From the NCBI RefSeq assembly GCF_009914755.1, contig NC_060933.1: a DNA stretch of 64,000 nucleotides; one strand, 5' to 3'. The position numbers and the translations under genes are program-made. Below are positions 5,306-42,498 of this stretch, piece by piece. This stretch comes from the human T2T-CHM13v2.0 reference genome, Homo sapiens. Position 1 is the first letter of the stretch. Each line of letters begins with the position of its first letter. Below the pieces are notes generated by a model. That model saw nothing but the letters and a program-made list of their open reading frames with translations, was not told the origin of the DNA and searched no databases.

Positions 5306-5357
5306 CTGATCAAGGTGAGGTTGTGTTCCTGGCACATGCTGAAGTTTTTTCTGCAAA
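5306..5357 (-). CDS. ZNG1A: ZNG1/CBWD coding exon 11 (S|LQKKLQHVPGTQPHLDQ)
   Basis: gtttttag|TTTGCAG...GATCAG|gtaaag; 52 nt; phase 2 in, phase 0 out; cumulative CDS 816 nt = 272 codons. Confidence 0.95.
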
Positions 5358-16433: not shown

Positions 16434-16490
16434 CTTATTCCAGAGAGACTATCAAAGGCATGAAGATCTAATACATTAGAGAGATCAACT
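16434..16490 (-). CDS. ZNG1A: ZNG1/CBWD coding exon 10 (R|VDLSNVLDLHAFDSLSGI)
   Basis: ttccttttag|AGTTGAT...GGAATAAG|gtatgt; 57 nt; phase 2/2. Confidence 0.95.
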
Positions 16491-17227
16491 CTAAAAGGAA
16501 GAAAACTAACGTGAGCAGTTGGAAATTCTGTGAAATACATCCAGTTAATCAAGAAAAAAAACTCTGACTTAAAAAATTTTATACATAAAATTCATAGAAG
16601 TGGGCAAATGGTGTAAGATTTGAATCACAGTTGAATCAAGATTGAAAATTATTTGTTTATTACTTCAATGAATTAGGTTTTTTTAAAACTTTCAATTATC
16701 TTTTCAATCCTGAAATTTATGAGCTTTTCAAATACATTTTTATAGCTAAAAAATCAGCTAAAGAACAGAAACTTTTCCAAGCAGCTTATTACTCAAAAGA
16801 TGAAACAAAAGAAATGACAAATAGAATTAACAAATAGGTACATTCCAGATACCTCTGCAATTTTTGTATTTCTTTTATACCCCCTCCCTTGATATAACAT
16901 GTAATATAAAAATGAGGAGTCAAATAACCAATGTACAAAATATTAAGTTACTCTAGGACCCTGATCTTCACGTGATTTGATTTCATTCATTCAGAATGGG
17001 GCTGCATGTAGGAAGAAAATTCCCACCATCCGAATAGACATTATTTCTCTTAGAATTATTTAATGATAATTAAACTCATTTAATTGAATCCAATGATTCA
17101 AATCAGGTGAGAATAAATAACATATCACAGTTAGCATTAGGTTTGGTTTAAATATAAAAAAGCAAATTTATAAAGACTGGTGATTGAGTTATAATTTTAA
17201 CATAAGTCCAGAAAACCACAGAGGACA

Positions 17228-17532
<305 letters not shown>

Positions 17533-18098
17533 GAACAGCAGAGGACAGTGATTTCTCATAATCAAAGCTAAGGTGAAGAAATATTTAAAGAAAATGACAA
17601 ATGTATAATTTCAAATTTAGATTCCAGAAGCTTGCCAAACATTTGTTAAATTTTCTTACAAGGAAAAAAAACATCATTGGTCAGATTCAAGATTTTTTTT
17701 TCTTTAATGCACAAACATATAAGAAAAACATCTCCTTTATCTTAGGACTGACCAACTGTGCCTGCTTTCTTTATTCTCAACAGTCTATCACATACTCGTA
17801 CTCGTGGCAACAATACTGTGTTAGATTACGAATGCTTGTCTTGGCAAAAGAGAGACAAATTCCCATCTTATTACTCCAAAGTTCTATGTTAGTAGACTAT
17901 AACAGCAACTCAAATTCTGGGCATTTTAGATGTACAGAATTAGAAAAATGATCAAGCGAAGAAGCAAATGTTCTATGAAGAAATTTCTGAGTATCAGTTT
18001 ACACTAAAAGGCCAAAGTCTTAATATTAAACATATTTCCTTTTTCACCTCCCCCTCCCCCCGCTACTGAGCATATTTATATTGACAGGTCACAGACAA

Positions 18099-18421
18099 GG
18101 GGCACGGCGGCTCCACTTTGGGAGGCCAAGGTGGGCGGATCACTTTGAGGCCAGGAGTTTGACACCAACCTGGCCAATGTGGCGAAACCGTCTCTACTAA
18201 AAATACAAAAATTAGCTGGGTGTGGTGGTGCACACCTGTAATCCCAGCTACTCGGAGGGTGAAGCAGGAGAATCGCCTGAACCCAGGAGGCAGAGGTTTC
18301 AGTGAGCCGAGGTCGCACCACCACACTCCAACTTGGGGGACAGAGTGAGATTCTGTCTCAAACCAGAGTGAGATTCTGTCTCAAAAAGATAAAAATAAAT
18401 AAAAATAAAAATAAAAATAAA
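18099..18421 (+). mobile_element. AluS-like with a 5' deletion and a 23-bp 3' duplication
   Basis: cagagtgagattctgtctcaaa at 18341-18362 and 18364-18385. Confidence 0.9.
18236..18375 (-). other. Candidate Alu-derived cassette exon (140 nt, frameshifting) in intron 9
   Basis: tctttttgagacag|AATCTC...GGATTACAG|gtgtgc, the classic antisense-Alu right-arm splice sites. Confidence 0.55.
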
Positions 18422-19469
18422 CCAAATGAATGAAGTTTCCCTCCAAGTTTGTCATCTTCATCTTAGGAAATAGCTTAAAGTTTAATAAAGTTTACACATG
18501 CCAATTTTGTGAATATCAAATTCAACAGTTTGGAAACACAAGCTTCTAAATAAACTGTTTCACTGTGACAGTGTCCTTGAGAATACATGCCATCCAGAGG
18601 TAATTCTGCTTTATACTCAGATTCTTTCCATACTTCCAAAAAAGGATCAATATTAGACCTGTACAACAAATTACACTCTTTTACAGAAAATAATAAAATA
18701 TCCAAGTCTCTCACCAAATTTTCAAAAAAGAGGAAAAGTGTAAGCTTCCAGATGAAAGTTTCTATAGCTTTCCCCAAATTTAGTACCACCATGAAAAAGA
18801 AATTCTTCACTCATTCAAGGCATACGACTAGAAAACTAATTTCCATGGCATCAAATTAATTTCCTCCTTTGGAGATAAAACCATGAGATCTTTTCCAAAG
18901 CATTAAAATCGCCAAGAAAAAAAAAAAAAGAAAAAAAAGACCATTACCAGCATTTTAAAACTGAGTAAGAGAATGAAGTAAACAAAAAAGGGAAAGAAAA
19001 AGCTTCAAAAGTTCATTTTTCTCCTAATTTCTTGAACTCTCTATTCCAGAAGTACCTAATGTTTTTCTTAAAAGAGAGGCTTTCAATTTTTCCCTATGTC
19101 TAAAGGCTGCTTTAAGTAGCCTAAGACCAAGGACAGGAGAGTGAAAATGAAGAGGGTTTTGGCTCTCCAAGGTGGGGGTGGAATTGCAGCTACTGCTTAG
19201 GGATATTTTCCAGTGGTCATCTCTTCAAACTCCAGTGAGTCTCACAAACAGGGTGCACCAGCCAATCCAAGTATCCAGTATCTACAATGCAAACTGTAGA
19301 TACTATCCAAATTGACAGTAGATAGCTCAGTAAATAGCTGAGCAAACTGCAATCATAGCTCAGTCTTGAACTCTGGAAATAAATTTCCAAAAGCCTTCCC
19401 CAGTGGCACTTCAAACTCAAAAACGCTTACAAAACTAATCACATTTTCCAAACCTGCTTCCACCACTAC

Positions 19470-20075
19470 CCGACCTGTTGCTCCTCCTTCCTGTATTTCC
19501 TATACCTCGGAGATTAGCCTCACATTGAATCTACCTCCCAAGAGGCATGTTGCTTTTAAAATCCTTCACTAACTCCTTGCTCCCTACAGAAGAAAATCCA
19601 AACTATGTATCATGGCATTCAAGACCCTTTGTGGTAAGTTCTCTATCTCTTCAGTCATACCACTTTTTCTGTGCTACATAATACCAAGTTTTCTAGCCAT
19701 TCTAAAAAATTCAAAGGTCCCTGGAATACAAAATCTTCCTTATACCTGGAAAGTTATCCCTACCCTACTCCATCTGTAAAAGCCTTATTCATTCTTTAAG
19801 ACTCAGGTCAATGACTGTCTTCTCGGTCAATATTTTCCTGACTCTTTTTCAAGAAAAGTTGAGCAATCATTCCCTCTATTTTCCTATTATTATAGAACTC
19901 TGTGCTTTTAAAATTCTTGTATTAATATTAATATCTATTATGTTGCCTTTTTGTTTGTTTGCTTCTGTTTCCCCCCAATGACTGATCTCCTTAAAGGCAG
20001 AGTTTTTGCCTTATCCATTGCTTATATAGTCCTTAAAATGCTATGAAATGCATAGTAGGCAGTTTGTCAAATTAA
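19470..20075 (+). mobile_element. L2 fragment(s)
   Basis: aaaatccaaactatgtatcatggcattcaagaccc...catagtaggc resembles the L2 3' region; highly diverged. Confidence 0.55.
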
Positions 20076-20377
20076 TTTAACTTATTATTGACCAGCTGTG
20101 TTTTGGTTTTCCTCTGTTCAGTCCACTTACATTTCTAAAAATTAAGAAAAAGTCTAGAGAAGATTAAAATGACACATCTTCTAACCTTTTACTCCTACTT
20201 CTGAAATCTATGTGGTTCACTAGTACTTCCATTTGCTACTAAATCAACTTAAGTCTTACCACTAAGACGATGCTACACACTATTCCTTTTCCTTACTCTT
20301 AACTACTCAAGGTGAGCCTTTTTCTACACATGCTTATAGCAGTTTATTGTCAGTACTTGTCAGCTACAAAATGGTAA

Positions 20378-20759
<382 letters not shown>

Positions 20760-21638
20760 CAAATCTCCAGTTTCTAAACTGGTAAGCTCAAGTTGCTATG
20801 CCTCAAGGAATTTGAGAGAATATTTAATGTAAGATTCAGGACCCAATAGTAAGAATTCTACTCAGGACATCTGATCTTCATTGAAAAGGATTCTAATGCA
20901 ACTTCAGTCCTCATAGCAAGGAAGTACTATTTCAGAAAGTCCCTAGATTCTCAGATGCACTGGCAAGCACCATACACTGAATAATTCACAGAAGATTTTA
21001 GTCACTTGCTCACTCATCCACTTGAAGTAAGAAAAATCAATCACTGCATGTTTATTGTTCTATAATAAAGCAAATGTTAGAAATAAAAGTTAGAAATGTC
21101 AAACACACTAAATTGTTACATAATAAACTAATCAAGACACAACTTTTATTCAGGACATGGATATTTCTGAAATGAAAACAAAAGAAGAGAATTGACTTAA
21201 AATGTTTATAAATACGAATATTATGACAGAACCAAAGCTATTTATGAGCATTATTTTTAAAAGCTTGTTTAAGTATTATGCACTTGTCTGTGTGACATTT
21301 TGTAAAGCGGAGAAAAATTAAGGAGAAAGGAATTGTAGAACACTAACAGGAAGAGGACAGATACTGAGGAATGGCTCATAGTATAAGTGAGATTATCAGA
21401 GACTTTCTACAATGGAATTTGAAATGCAGGGAGCACATTTGGTGTATGGTTGTAGAGGACTTACACTAAGGGCATTCTTCTGCTACCTCTGCCAGCAGAT
21501 GAGTGGCTCCTGAGAATGCATACCAAATTAATTCCCCAGCTGTTCACATGCATATAAGCAGCTGCTGCTGTTACTGCCTAACACTTATGGCAGTCTGGCA
21601 GCACCTCTAATCTCTGCCATAGCAGACAAGCCACTCAC

Positions 21639-21761
21639 CTAAGGCCTCTGCTGTACTTCCAAAGAAAGAATTTCTCCAGTAGAGACTGAGTGGAACTAGA
21701 CTGCCAGCTGTGAGCCTCAGAGCTCCTGGCTGCCTGTTGCTGAGTCTATTAGCTGCTGAGC
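21639..21761 (-). other. Candidate poison cassette exon (123 nt) in intron 9
   Basis: Long poly-U tract then ggtgagaaag|GCTCAGCAGCTAA...GCCTTAG|gtgagt (consensus donor). After exon 9 it reads R-L-S-S-stop. Confidence 0.75.
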
Positions 21762-22368
21762 CTTTCTCACCAAAAAAAAAAAAAAAAAAAAAAAAAATGA
21801 GCTTAATAAAATAACCCTGCACAGAAATTTTCTGAAATTAAGATAACATTCAATGGAAAACAGAATTTAATCTACAGAAATACACTTCACAGATGTTTTA
21901 GGAACAGAACCTAGAGAAAATGAAAGTCAAAATTTAATAAAAGAATTTGTCAGGAACTTCAAGGTAAAGACTCCATGTATTTTTTGGCAACTATAAAACA
22001 CTAAGAAGGCTTTTTAAATATTAAAAAGCCATTTAAACACTTCAAATTAAGATTCCTCAATATACTTCAGATTTCTGTACTGAGTTACCCTCTCGAGTGT
22101 TTGGAAGTCTTTTCTTCCTCATTAAGCAAACACTTACACAGTGTTATCATGGCTTTGTATTCTTAGTTTTGAAGACAGGCAAATGTACTAGCCAAATATG
22201 CCAAACTAACTTATTAAGAGCATTCCAAACAACATTTTGGATCCAATTCTTTTTAAATGCACTTAGATCTTTCTTATATTAGAATCAAGCATATTTGTCA
22301 ATTATTTAATGTTTATTATTAATAACTAAAATGATTTGTTATTAATAGGAATAGCTTTTTTAAAGTAC

Positions 22369-22413
22369 CTTGATCTTTGTGTTTCTAAGATTTGTCCTAG
22401 TCCATTTATGGAT
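22369..22413 (-). CDS. ZNG1A: ZNG1/CBWD coding exon 9 (R|SINGLGQILETQRS)
   Basis: atttcag|ATCC...TCAAG|gtactt; 45 nt; phase 2/2. Confidence 0.95.
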
Positions 22414-23729
22414 CTGAAATAAATAATAAATGAGGAAGACAAAGTTTAAAAGTAAAAATTAACTTTTTAAAAAAGTATACAAAGTATATTGTTTCTAAAA
22501 CAGGAAATAAGCATACCCAAATACATCTGGAACCAGAAAAAAATTAAAAACAGAAAAACAAAACTTGCTTTAAAAAATAATTGTGATTTTCCTTCAAACA
22601 ATAAATCACATATATTCCACTCATACATTAATAAAACATATATGCAAAAATTCGCACAACTGTCAGATTAAGGGCTACTTTGTGGTTAATAAAAAGACAC
22701 TTCACTTTAGAAAAAATCATTCATAAATAGTCAGTTATCCTAGTGTTCTTAAAAATGAGTAGATACTCAAAATTTTTACGGTGGTCACTTTTTTCCTCAG
22801 GCATACATGGTAGAAATGGCTATATACACACTAAAAATAAAAACCTAGTTGCAAGTTGCTTTGCCCCCAGCCTGTCCTTAGTATTCACAGTAATTCTAAG
22901 TCACACATCCCAGGTTCCTTTATAGAATAACCTCGTCAGTTCCCTAATTAGGCTCTCTACCCGTTATGCCTGTTCTCCCTCTTTTGATACTATAGAATAT
23001 GGCTTCGTATGGCACCAAAAAGTACCTGTTAAATTCTTTTCAACACACTGTACACCTCATCTATTTATCTTTTCCATTGCCTATCATCAATCATCAATTC
23101 TCTATCATGAATTCAATTGTCTTTAGGGTTACTTACCCAAGATTCTTGCTACTTGTTCAAGTTTGTTCTCATGGGTAAGGCTTCCCACATATAATGATTC
23201 TGAGGCAAGTCTCTCCACTATTTTACAAAATTCTTAAATCTTCTTTTTTGAATACACTCTAGTCTGATGGCTAATTCCTCTCAAACATGTTTACCTTTTT
23301 TCACCTCCCCAAATATCATTCTGAGTCAGTCACAAGTCTGATATAAAGGGAGGGTAAAAGCCAAAAGGGTGTGTAATTTATCAAATTGCTTCTTCCAAAT
23401 TCATTTCTAGTACTGTTAACAAGCTGGCTAATAGTCAATATTGTCAGTGTCAGAGATTTAGCTTAGGTCTCTATAAGGATATAAAAGTCAAGTAATAATT
23501 ATCATTCCTTTTATGCCAAAAACATTTGCTAAATAGATTGTGTTCTTCTTAGCAATCACAATGGTGCACAAGATTTATGAAGAGAAACAAGATTAGAAGA
23601 CCAGTGTCAAAAAATGTAAAAGCAATCTTCATTCATCACTTTCTCCTTTTCAAAATCAGCCATCTTTTTCTTTCTTCCCTTTTTTACTATACCTTGAACT
23701 TACTATGTAAGCTAAGAAAAAAATTACAT

Positions 23730-42406: not shown

Positions 42407-42498
42407 CAGGGTCTGCTAATCCAGTGGTCTCTAACAGTATGTAATCAAATTTCCCCTTCTTTTGCATCAAATTCTCAATAGCTCTAAGGCCACTGTCC
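42407..42498 (-). CDS. ZNG1A: ZNG1/CBWD coding exon 4 (K|[30 protein letters not shown]), Walker B ExxG
   Basis: ttctccag|GGACAGT...CCCTG|gtaaga; 92 nt; phase 2/1. Confidence 0.96.

What the first reader, a model, noticed from the sequence alone, without database searches (positions are those of the whole stretch)
21497..21761. Poison exon whose 5' splice site is locked in a 12-bp helix closing a multibranch RNA structure with UGCAUG at a hairpin tip
Seen, on the gene strand: AG|GUGAGUGGCU (21640-21629, donor positions -2 to +10) pairs fully with AGCCACUCAUCU (21508-21497), giving 11 Watson-Crick pairs and one G-U; on the opposite strand that position would be an A-C mismatch. Enclosed are three hairpins: UGGCAG/CUGCCA (21619-21614 with 21601-21596), ACUGCC/GGCAGU (21594-21589 with 21578-21573) and CAGCUG/CAGCUG (21564-21559 with 21542-21537). 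The last is extended by A-U and G-U pairs and carries the RBFOX motif UGCAUG (21552-21547) at its apex. The exon introduces a stop with either acceptor (21761: RLSS*; 21765: RKAQQLIDSATGSQEL*). The block is GC-richer than its flanks and I recognise no repeat in it. Inference: a structure-gated splicing/NMD switch setting ZNG1 level, conceivably responsive to zinc status or an RNA-binding protein.
Basis: partly seen in the sequence, partly recalled or inferred. Interest (0 to 1): 0.8.

Follow-up and report, generated by a model that had tools for sequence, protein, structure and literature searches.

The report
Splice-donor helix at ZNG1A stop-codon exon
An annotated, stop-codon-bearing alternative exon of human ZNG1A really does have its splice donor complementary to a 12-base intron stretch, but nothing found here shows the pairing is a selected or regulated switch.

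Summary
The sequence claims hold. On the gene strand, AGGUGAGUGGCU (21640-21629) pairs with AGCCACUCAUCU (21508-21497): 11 Watson-Crick pairs and one G-U. The 123-nt exon is annotated in RefSeq and gives a stop with either acceptor.

The donor-intron duplex is unusually strong: -20.7 kcal/mol, against -3.5 to -10.6 for 16 other donors of the gene. Only 2 of 2000 shuffles reach it.

The "locked switch" reading has no support:
- The predicted helix probability falls from about 1.0 in 161 nt to 0.18 in 1 kb.
- 5 of 16 other donors cost more to open.
- The opposite strand folds just as exceptionally.
- Seven human paralogues vary at the neutral rate, show no compensatory change, and one breaks the helix.
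- One of the three claimed hairpins is not predicted.

The GC-richer block has two diverged homologues elsewhere in the genome, on chr2 and chrX, which lack the 3' arm sequence and UGCAUG.

Most likely this is an unproductive exon formed from old repeat-like sequence next to a 26-U tract, with a fortuitous donor-masking helix. Vertebrate conservation and expression could not be tested.

The parts
21639..21761 (-). 123-nt alternative cassette exon of ZNG1A with tandem in-frame stops (TAA TAG at codons 4-5 after the junction)
   Evidence: Listed in the hub's RefSeq table as an exon of other transcripts. Translation in frame with the upstream CDS gives RLSS**. Six paralogues read TGA at the first stop.
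21629..21640 (-). 5' arm of the helix: the last two exon bases plus donor positions +1 to +10 (AG|GUGAGUGGCU)
   Evidence: I5. The donor fits the MAG|GURAGU consensus (recalled) at every position except -3.
21497..21508 (-). 3' arm of the helix (AGCCACUCAUCU), 120 nt downstream in the intron
   Evidence: It lies at the edge of the core shared with the chr2 and chrX homologues, which read CTTCTCT and CTTACTG where ZNG1A reads CCACTCA.
21573..21594 (-). Hairpin ACUGCC/GGCAGU
   Evidence: Pair probability 0.83-0.99.
21537..21564 (-). Hairpin CAGCUG...CAGCUG with UGCAUG (21552-21547) at or near its tip
   Evidence: Pair probability 0.65-0.80. The stem is kept in the chr2 and chrX homologues, but the UGCAUG is not.
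21613..21626 (-).
   Evidence: Pair probability 0.68-0.95, against 0.04 for UGGCAG/CUGCCA.
21686..21692 (-). Exonic CCACUCA, an upstream alternative partner of donor bases +2 to +8
   Evidence: In the transcript truncated before the intronic arm, donor +3 and +5 pair with C21688 and C21690 at 0.77.
21774..21799 (-). Run of 26 U just upstream of the acceptor: the polypyrimidine tract and a likely hnRNP C/U2AF65 site
   Evidence: Length is 26-40 in six paralogues. Protein binding is inferred from PMC3629564 and PMC4604433 (search listing and start of abstracts only).
21393..21761 (-). GC-richer block homologous to chr2:36.396 Mb. Its core, 21495-21549, is also homologous to chrX:132.19 Mb.

Best explanation
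This is an annotated, unproductive cassette exon of ZNG1A and its recent paralogues. Including it inserts stop codons far upstream of the last junction, so the mRNA should be an NMD substrate.

The exon sits in a GC-richer, CAG/CTG-rich and therefore self-complementary block. That block is an old, very low-copy repeated sequence lying next to a 26-U tract. Together these supply a consensus donor and a polypyrimidine tract.

The 12-bp donor-intron helix is real in the sequence and thermodynamically strong. It is most likely a by-product of this sequence composition and not an evolved sensor. If it forms on nascent RNA, it would only passively lower U1 access and so lower exon inclusion.

Shown: the pairing, the frame, the homologues and the paralogue variation.
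Inferred: NMD, any effect on splicing, and the role of the U tract.
For: - Pairing and stops confirmed.
- Both strands fold exceptionally: z -2.35 with 4 of 200 shuffles as good, and z -2.99 with 1 of 200.
- Helix probability is 0.97-1.00 in 161 nt, 0.71-0.83 in 362 nt, about 0.51 in 601 nt and about 0.18 in 1001 nt.
- The opening cost of donor -3..+6 is 5.33 kcal/mol. 5 of 16 other GT donors of the gene cost more, among them constitutive donors at 7.30, 7.60 and 10.87.
- In a sliding-window fold, the donor 9-mer is more accessible than 89% of all 9-mers across 30000-14000.
- Seven paralogues show 5 variable columns of 145 in the structure, against 138 of 3345 overall. 71% of 144-column windows have 5 or fewer.
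None is compensatory.
- The block has homologues on chr2 and chrX that lack the 3' arm sequence and UGCAUG.
- No Rfam match.
Against: - The duplex is a clear outlier: -20.7 kcal/mol against -3.5 to -10.6 for 16 other donors, reached by 2 of 2000 shuffles.
- The helix is kept, with mean probability 0.77-0.95, in 5 of the 6 paralogues evaluated. The seventh could not be anchored.
- The single non-Watson-Crick position is a G-U on the gene strand.
- A second, exonic partner for the donor exists. That could be read as redundancy in masking.
- The paralogues are only 1-4% diverged, so the lack of covariation has little weight.
- No cross-species or expression data could be consulted.
Confidence: 0.7

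Rival explanations
1. The helix is a selected, constitutive silencer. It keeps an otherwise strong pseudo-exon (consensus donor plus a long U tract) from destroying ZNG1 mRNA. [quoted passage not shown]
For: - The duplex is an outlier among the gene's donors and against shuffles.
- The helix is predicted in 5 of 6 paralogues evaluated.
- In the one copy that loses it, the same change (G+5A) also weakens the donor, so that copy needs no mask.
Against: - There is no sign of constraint among the paralogues.
- Helix probability decays with context.
- The opening cost is unexceptional.
- The same paper gives false discovery rates of 10% to over 50% even for conserved pairs.
- 'CBWD' was not found in the 3 supplementary files held for that paper. 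Its BED tables may not be among them.
Confidence: 0.2
2. One reading: a regulated gate. The helix is opened or stabilised by a factor such as RBFOX at UGCAUG, a helicase or metal ions, so that exon inclusion and NMD tune ZNG1 level to zinc status.
For: - One UGCAUG lies 87-92 nt downstream of the donor. It is largely unpaired in the prediction and present in 7 of 7 paralogues.
- The exon does carry stops.
- The gene's function makes zinc feedback attractive (an inference only).
Against: - UGCAUG occurs 20 times on this strand of the window, with 14.2 expected. By my arithmetic, one falls within 200 nt of a given site about 6% of the time.
- UGCAUG is absent from the chr2 and chrX homologues of the hairpin.
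- No Rfam metal-sensing or other family matches.
- No paper linking ZNG1/CBWD splicing to NMD, zinc or cryptic exons turned up.
- There is no covariation.
Confidence: 0.07

Closest known systems
Donor-masking stem-loops of MAPT exon 10 and SMN2 exon 7 (TSL2; PMC1802598, search listing and start of abstract; MAPT recalled)
   Same: The 5' splice site bases that U1 snRNA must pair with lie inside an RNA helix, which would lower exon inclusion.
   Different: Those stems are short and local, conserved, and proven by mutation and compensation. Here the arms are 120 nt apart around a multibranch loop, nothing is tested, and the masked exon is harmful where those exons are coding.
Pairs of conserved complementary regions in human introns (PMC8052449; abstract and passages read)
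   Same: An intronic complementary stretch overlaps the splice site of a rarely used exon. That paper reports enrichment of such regions at cryptic and inactive sites.
   Different: That catalogue requires both arms to lie in vertebrate-conserved elements and excludes alternative exons and repeats. Conservation here is untested. 'CBWD' was not found in the 3 supplementary files held.
U-tract exonization held down by hnRNP C competing with U2AF65, with NMD as back-up (PMC3629564, PMC5115870; search listing and start of abstracts)
   Same: A long uninterrupted U run directly upstream of a weak acceptor, and a stop-bearing new exon inside a coding gene.
   Different: The U run here is not the antisense tail of an Alu, since the sequence next to it is not Alu-like. 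'CBWD' was not found in the 2 supplementary files held for PMC3629564.
Conserved regulatory poison exons of splicing factors (for example SRSF3, TRA2B; listings)
   Same: A cassette exon with an in-frame stop, coupled to NMD.
   Different: Those are ultraconserved and autoregulated by the encoded RNA-binding protein. This exon shows neutral-like variation among paralogues (5 variable columns of 123), and ZNG1 is not known to bind RNA.

Membership tests
NMD-coupled poison cassette exon | Cassette exon with usable AG acceptor and GU donor | tested here: met
   AG at 21763-21762 and GU at 21638-21637. The exon is in the hub's RefSeq table.
NMD-coupled poison cassette exon | Inclusion brings an in-frame premature stop | tested here: met
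   RLSS** from 21761 and RKAQQLIDSATGSQEL* from 21765, in the frame set by 707 nt of upstream CDS.
NMD-coupled poison cassette exon | Stop more than about 50-55 nt upstream of the last exon junction | tested here: met
   The stop at 21751-21749 lies about 110 nt before this exon's own donor. Further exons follow at 16434-16490 and 5306-5357 (hub table). The 50-55 nt rule is recalled.
NMD-coupled poison cassette exon | The isoform rises when NMD is blocked | not testable with these tools
   No expression data. Searches found nothing on CBWD1 or ZNG1A.
Donor-masking RNA structure | Donor bases -2..+6 paired in a stable helix | tested here: inconclusive
   The duplex is -20.7 kcal/mol. Its probability falls from about 1.0 to 0.18 as the context grows from 161 nt to 1 kb. 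The opening cost of 5.33 kcal/mol is mid-range among the gene's donors.
Donor-masking RNA structure | Helix kept by compensatory change in relatives | tested here: not met
   Across seven paralogues there are 0 compensatory changes, 1 U-A to U-G change (2 copies) and 1 A-C break (1 copy). The depth is shallow, at 1-4% divergence. Other species were not available.
Donor-masking RNA structure | Disrupting and restoring mutations change inclusion | not testable with these tools
   This needs a bench experiment.
RBFOX-activated exon | (U)GCAUG within a few hundred nt downstream, conserved and bound | tested here: inconclusive
   One UGCAUG lies at +87..+92 and is present in 7 of 7 paralogues. It is absent from the chr2 and chrX homologues. 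The chance rate is about 6% per 200 nt. Binding cannot be tested here.
Known structured cis-regulatory RNA or riboswitch (Rfam) | Match to a curated covariance model | tested here: not met
   There are 6 matches with E up to 10 across 20800-22500, all far below their gathering scores.

The most novel reading that the evidence does not exclude
The 12-bp helix, backed by the exonic CCACUCA decoy, is a true gate on a stop-bearing exon. Its opening by a helicase, by RBFOX at the hairpin tip or by a change in divalent metal ions tunes the level of the zinc metallochaperone ZNG1 through NMD. That would be a post-transcriptional feedback loop for zinc homeostasis in hominids.
Probability: 0.05. Interest if true: 0.7.

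Novelty: new member of a known kind. Interest (0 to 1): 0.25.

Why it matters
If the helix worked, ZNG1A would be another case of a splice donor masked by RNA structure, here holding down a harmful exon in a zinc-chaperone gene. The near-identical paralogues would serve as natural mutants: one copy carries G+5A, and two carry the U-G variant.

As it stands, the finding mainly shows that a perfect-looking 12-bp helix at a donor does not establish regulation on its own. By my arithmetic, the per-donor chance rate of about 0.001 predicts hundreds of such cases in the human genome.

Tried and rejected
- **Known RNA family.** Rfam gave nothing over 20800-22500. In the chr2 and chrX loci it gave only matches in the loci's Alu stretches (the Alu identity), far from the shared core.
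- **Retroposon origin.** I took the A-run on the + strand for a possible retroposon tail. No target-site duplication was found: 11-mers from the 30 nt after the run gave no hit in 18001-21770. The chr2 and chrX homologues have no such run.
- **Internal duplication.** This could have explained the two CCACTCA copies. It is not significant: 65 of 1000 shuffles match the direct score and 52 of 1000 the inverted score.
- **Closing helix inherited from the repeat.** By eye, the chr2 and chrX copies have closing pairings near the homologous 3' arm.
  - The donor stretch has no proven counterpart. ZNG1A against the chrX 5' half is matched by 199 of 500 shuffles.
  - The consensus fold of the three copies keeps only the central hairpin.
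  - I therefore dropped this idea.
- **More family members.**
  - Four DNA searches of the genome and two pattern searches found only three distinct places.
  - In one search, the 7 extra matches at 2 mismatches compare with 6 for the control pattern.
  - A DNA alignment and a covariance model are not accepted for this genome.
- **Papers.**
  - Nothing on a ZNG1/CBWD poison or cryptic exon turned up.
  - 'CBWD' or 'ZNG1A' did not occur in the supplements held for PMC8052449 (3 files), PMC3629564 (2 files) or PMC11632617 (1 file). Larger tables may not be held.

Full report
**1. Observation**

- AG|GUGAGUGGCU at 21640-21629 is complementary to AGCCACUCAUCU at 21508-21497. There are 11 Watson-Crick pairs and one G-U, with 120 nt between the arms (pair I5).
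- The exon 21639-21761 is listed in the hub's RefSeq table as an exon of alternative ZNG1A transcripts.
- I joined the annotated coding parts from 49298 down to 22369. This gives 707 nt, an open frame starting MLPAV, ending in phase 2.
- Adding the exon from acceptor 21761 gives ...RLSS**, with tandem TAA TAG stops. From the alternative AG (exon start 21765) it gives RKAQQLIDSATGSQEL*.
- The exon is 123 nt, and the run of T before the acceptor is 26.
- GC is 0.41-0.47 in 200-nt windows across 21300-21800, against 0.27-0.35 on either side.

**2. The predicted structure**

- The 161-nt stretch 21650-21490 folds to -64.5 kcal/mol with the 12-bp helix closing a multibranch loop. The z-score is -2.35, and 4 of 200 shuffles fold as well.
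- The opposite strand is at least as exceptional: -52.8 kcal/mol, z -2.99, 1 of 200 shuffles. The signal is therefore an inverted-repeat property of the DNA and not specific to the RNA strand.
- UGGCAG/CUGCCA has probability 0.04. A local UCUGC/GCAGA hairpin replaces it at 0.68-0.95.
- Within UGCAUG, the first four bases are mostly unpaired (0.75-0.99). The last two are partly in the stem (0.16-0.43 unpaired).

**3. Is it more than chance?**

Taken as a duplex between the donor 12-mer and the 250 nt downstream, the energy is -20.7 kcal/mol.
- The 16 other GT donors annotated in the window give -3.5 to -10.6.
- 2 of 2000 dinucleotide shuffles reach -20.7.
- None of 255 other 250-nt tiles of the window reaches -18. 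The true partner is split by a tile border.
- That is a per-donor chance of about 0.001.

Against this, the minus strand of the window holds 46 raw records of 12-bp helices with at most one G-U within 200 nt.
- By my reading of that list, these are 22 places, 17 of them not low-complexity.
- By my arithmetic, an arm then covers a given donor core with probability of about 0.003.
- Some annotated donor in a window like this is hit about once in 20 windows.
- So the pairing is locally striking but is expected many times genome-wide.

**4. Is the donor 'locked'?**

- The helix's pair probability is 0.97-1.00 in the 161-nt fragment and 0.71-0.83 with the exon plus 240 nt of intron.
- It is about 0.51 in 601 nt and about 0.18 in 1001 nt, where exonic partners take over.
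- In the transcript as it exists before the intronic arm is made (21761-21520), donor +3 and +5 already pair with the exonic CCACUCA (C21688, C21690) at 0.77.
- The free-energy cost of opening donor -3..+6 within +-200 nt is 5.33 kcal/mol.
- 5 of the 16 other GT donors cost more, including the constitutive donors at 42407 (7.30), 16434 (7.60) and 25043 (10.87).
- Three rows of that call (5331, 16686, 42815) are not GT donors and were left out.
- In a sliding-window fold, the donor 9-mer is unpaired with probability 0.12-0.14. That is more accessible than 89% of all 9-mers in 30000-14000 and second highest of the 17 donors.
- These are predictions. They say the helix is plausible, but the donor is not exceptionally hidden.

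**5. Relatives: the paralogues**

The window's own assembly could be searched. The region occurs in seven copies at 96-100% identity: five further copies on chromosome 9 and one at chr2:113.9 Mb.
- In an alignment of about 3.3 kb around each copy, 138 of 3345 columns vary.
- In the structure (21640-21497), 5 of 145 columns vary. In the exon, 5 of 123. In the neighbouring coding exon, 0 of 45.
- 71% of 144-column windows have 5 or fewer variable columns. There is no sign of constraint.
- Of the five changes in the structure, two are in the loop of hairpin 2.
- One turns U-A into U-G in the helix (two copies).
- One breaks the CUGCCA arm (two copies).
- One, G+5 to A in the chr2:113.9 Mb copy, both weakens the donor and removes the helix.
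- The helix's mean probability is 0.00 in that copy, against 0.77-0.95 in the five others evaluated. The seventh copy could not be anchored by my script.
- No change is compensatory.
- The first stop is TAA only in ZNG1A and TGA in the six others.
- The T run is 26-40 in the six copies measured.

**6. Relatives: an older repeated sequence**

- At chr2:36.396 Mb, the match is 85% over 55 nt, extending to 65% over 157 nt with E 3e-13.
- The exon itself also aligns to that copy: score 22, against a maximum of 20 in 500 shuffles.
- At chrX:132.19 Mb, the match to ZNG1A is 81% over 42 nt. The match to the chr2 copy is 71% over 97 nt.
- Pattern searches found no further place. In one search, the 7 extra matches at 2 mismatches compare with 6 for the reversed control. 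In one search, 9 matches, all in these three places, compare with 0 for the control.
- The three copies share the central hairpin stem CAGCTG(T/C)TT...AACAGCTG.
- The others read CTTCTCT or CTTACTG where ZNG1A has the CCACTCA of the 3' arm.
- They carry about 18 extra bases where ZNG1A has UGCAUG.
- The donor stretch has no demonstrable counterpart in them.
- So the GC-richer block is an old, very low-copy repeated sequence. The central hairpin is inherited from it. The closing helix and the RBFOX motif are particular to the ZNG1 copy.
- I cannot name the family.

**7. Mechanism**

Shown:
- A consensus donor.
- A long U tract 10 nt ahead of a modest acceptor (AAAG|G).
- An in-frame stop about 110 nt before the exon's own donor, with more exons downstream.

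Inferred:
- Inclusion gives an NMD substrate.
- The exon is a product of exonization of repeat-derived sequence.
- Its use is limited by some mix of three things: donor masking, whether by the intronic 12-mer or the exonic 7-mer; proteins on the U tract, such as hnRNP C competing with U2AF65 as described for U tracts in PMC3629564 and PMC4604433 (listing and start of abstracts only); and the weak acceptor.

I put 0.7 on the helix being an unselected by-product with at most a passive damping effect. I put 0.2 on it being a selected constitutive silencer of the kind described in PMC8052449 (passages read). I put about 0.07 on a regulated switch.

**8. Comparison with what is known**

Masking of a donor by RNA structure is an established kind of mechanism.
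- Examples are MAPT exon 10 (recalled) and SMN2 TSL2 (PMC1802598, listing).
[quoted passage not shown] Its stated false discovery rates run from 10% to over 50%.
- The exon is already annotated.
- Five searches found no paper on ZNG1/CBWD splicing, NMD or cryptic exons.
- Searches of the supplements held for three papers found no mention. Larger tables may not be held, and paper reading closed.

**9. What stays open**

- Vertebrate or primate conservation, exon usage, the response to NMD block, zinc or RBFOX, and in-cell structure could not be examined with these tools.
- The paralogues are too similar for the lack of covariation to weigh much.
- The verdict is therefore 'real pairing, unproven and probably unselected function', not a refutation.

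Noticed in passing
window 21495-21549; L008 1501-1555; L017 1505-1546: A 35-55 nt core is kept at 81-86% identity in only three places of the human genome, while the flanks are about 65% identical. It reads CAGCTGG-GAA--AATTTG-TAT--ATTC-CAGGA and holds an E-box-like CAGCTG and an AT-rich AATTAATTTG. It could be a very low-copy old repeat, or an element co-opted at the DNA level.
   Followed up: partly
window 21774-21799 and paralogue loci L002-L006: The T run ahead of the exon varies from 26 to 40 among six near-identical paralogues. It is interrupted by a G in the seventh (column 21773). This could change acceptor strength or protein binding from copy to copy.
   Followed up: partly
window 21750: The first stop of the exon is TAA in ZNG1A but TGA in the six other copies. 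A second stop, TAG, follows directly in all seven.
   Followed up: yes
window 21059-21061: The long alternative exon 16686-21059 is preceded by AG on the gene strand (read). The stop-bearing exon may therefore also be joined to this probable alternative last exon, leaving a 579-nt intron that holds the whole structure.
   Followed up: no
window 21686-21692: The exonic CCACUCA repeats the core of the intronic arm. It is predicted to pair with the donor (probability 0.77) before the intronic arm is transcribed.
   Followed up: partly
window 25043 and 16434: Two constitutive ZNG1A donors have higher predicted opening costs (10.87 and 7.60 kcal/mol) than the donor under study. This is a reminder that predicted occlusion alone does not mark an exon as regulated.
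   Followed up: no
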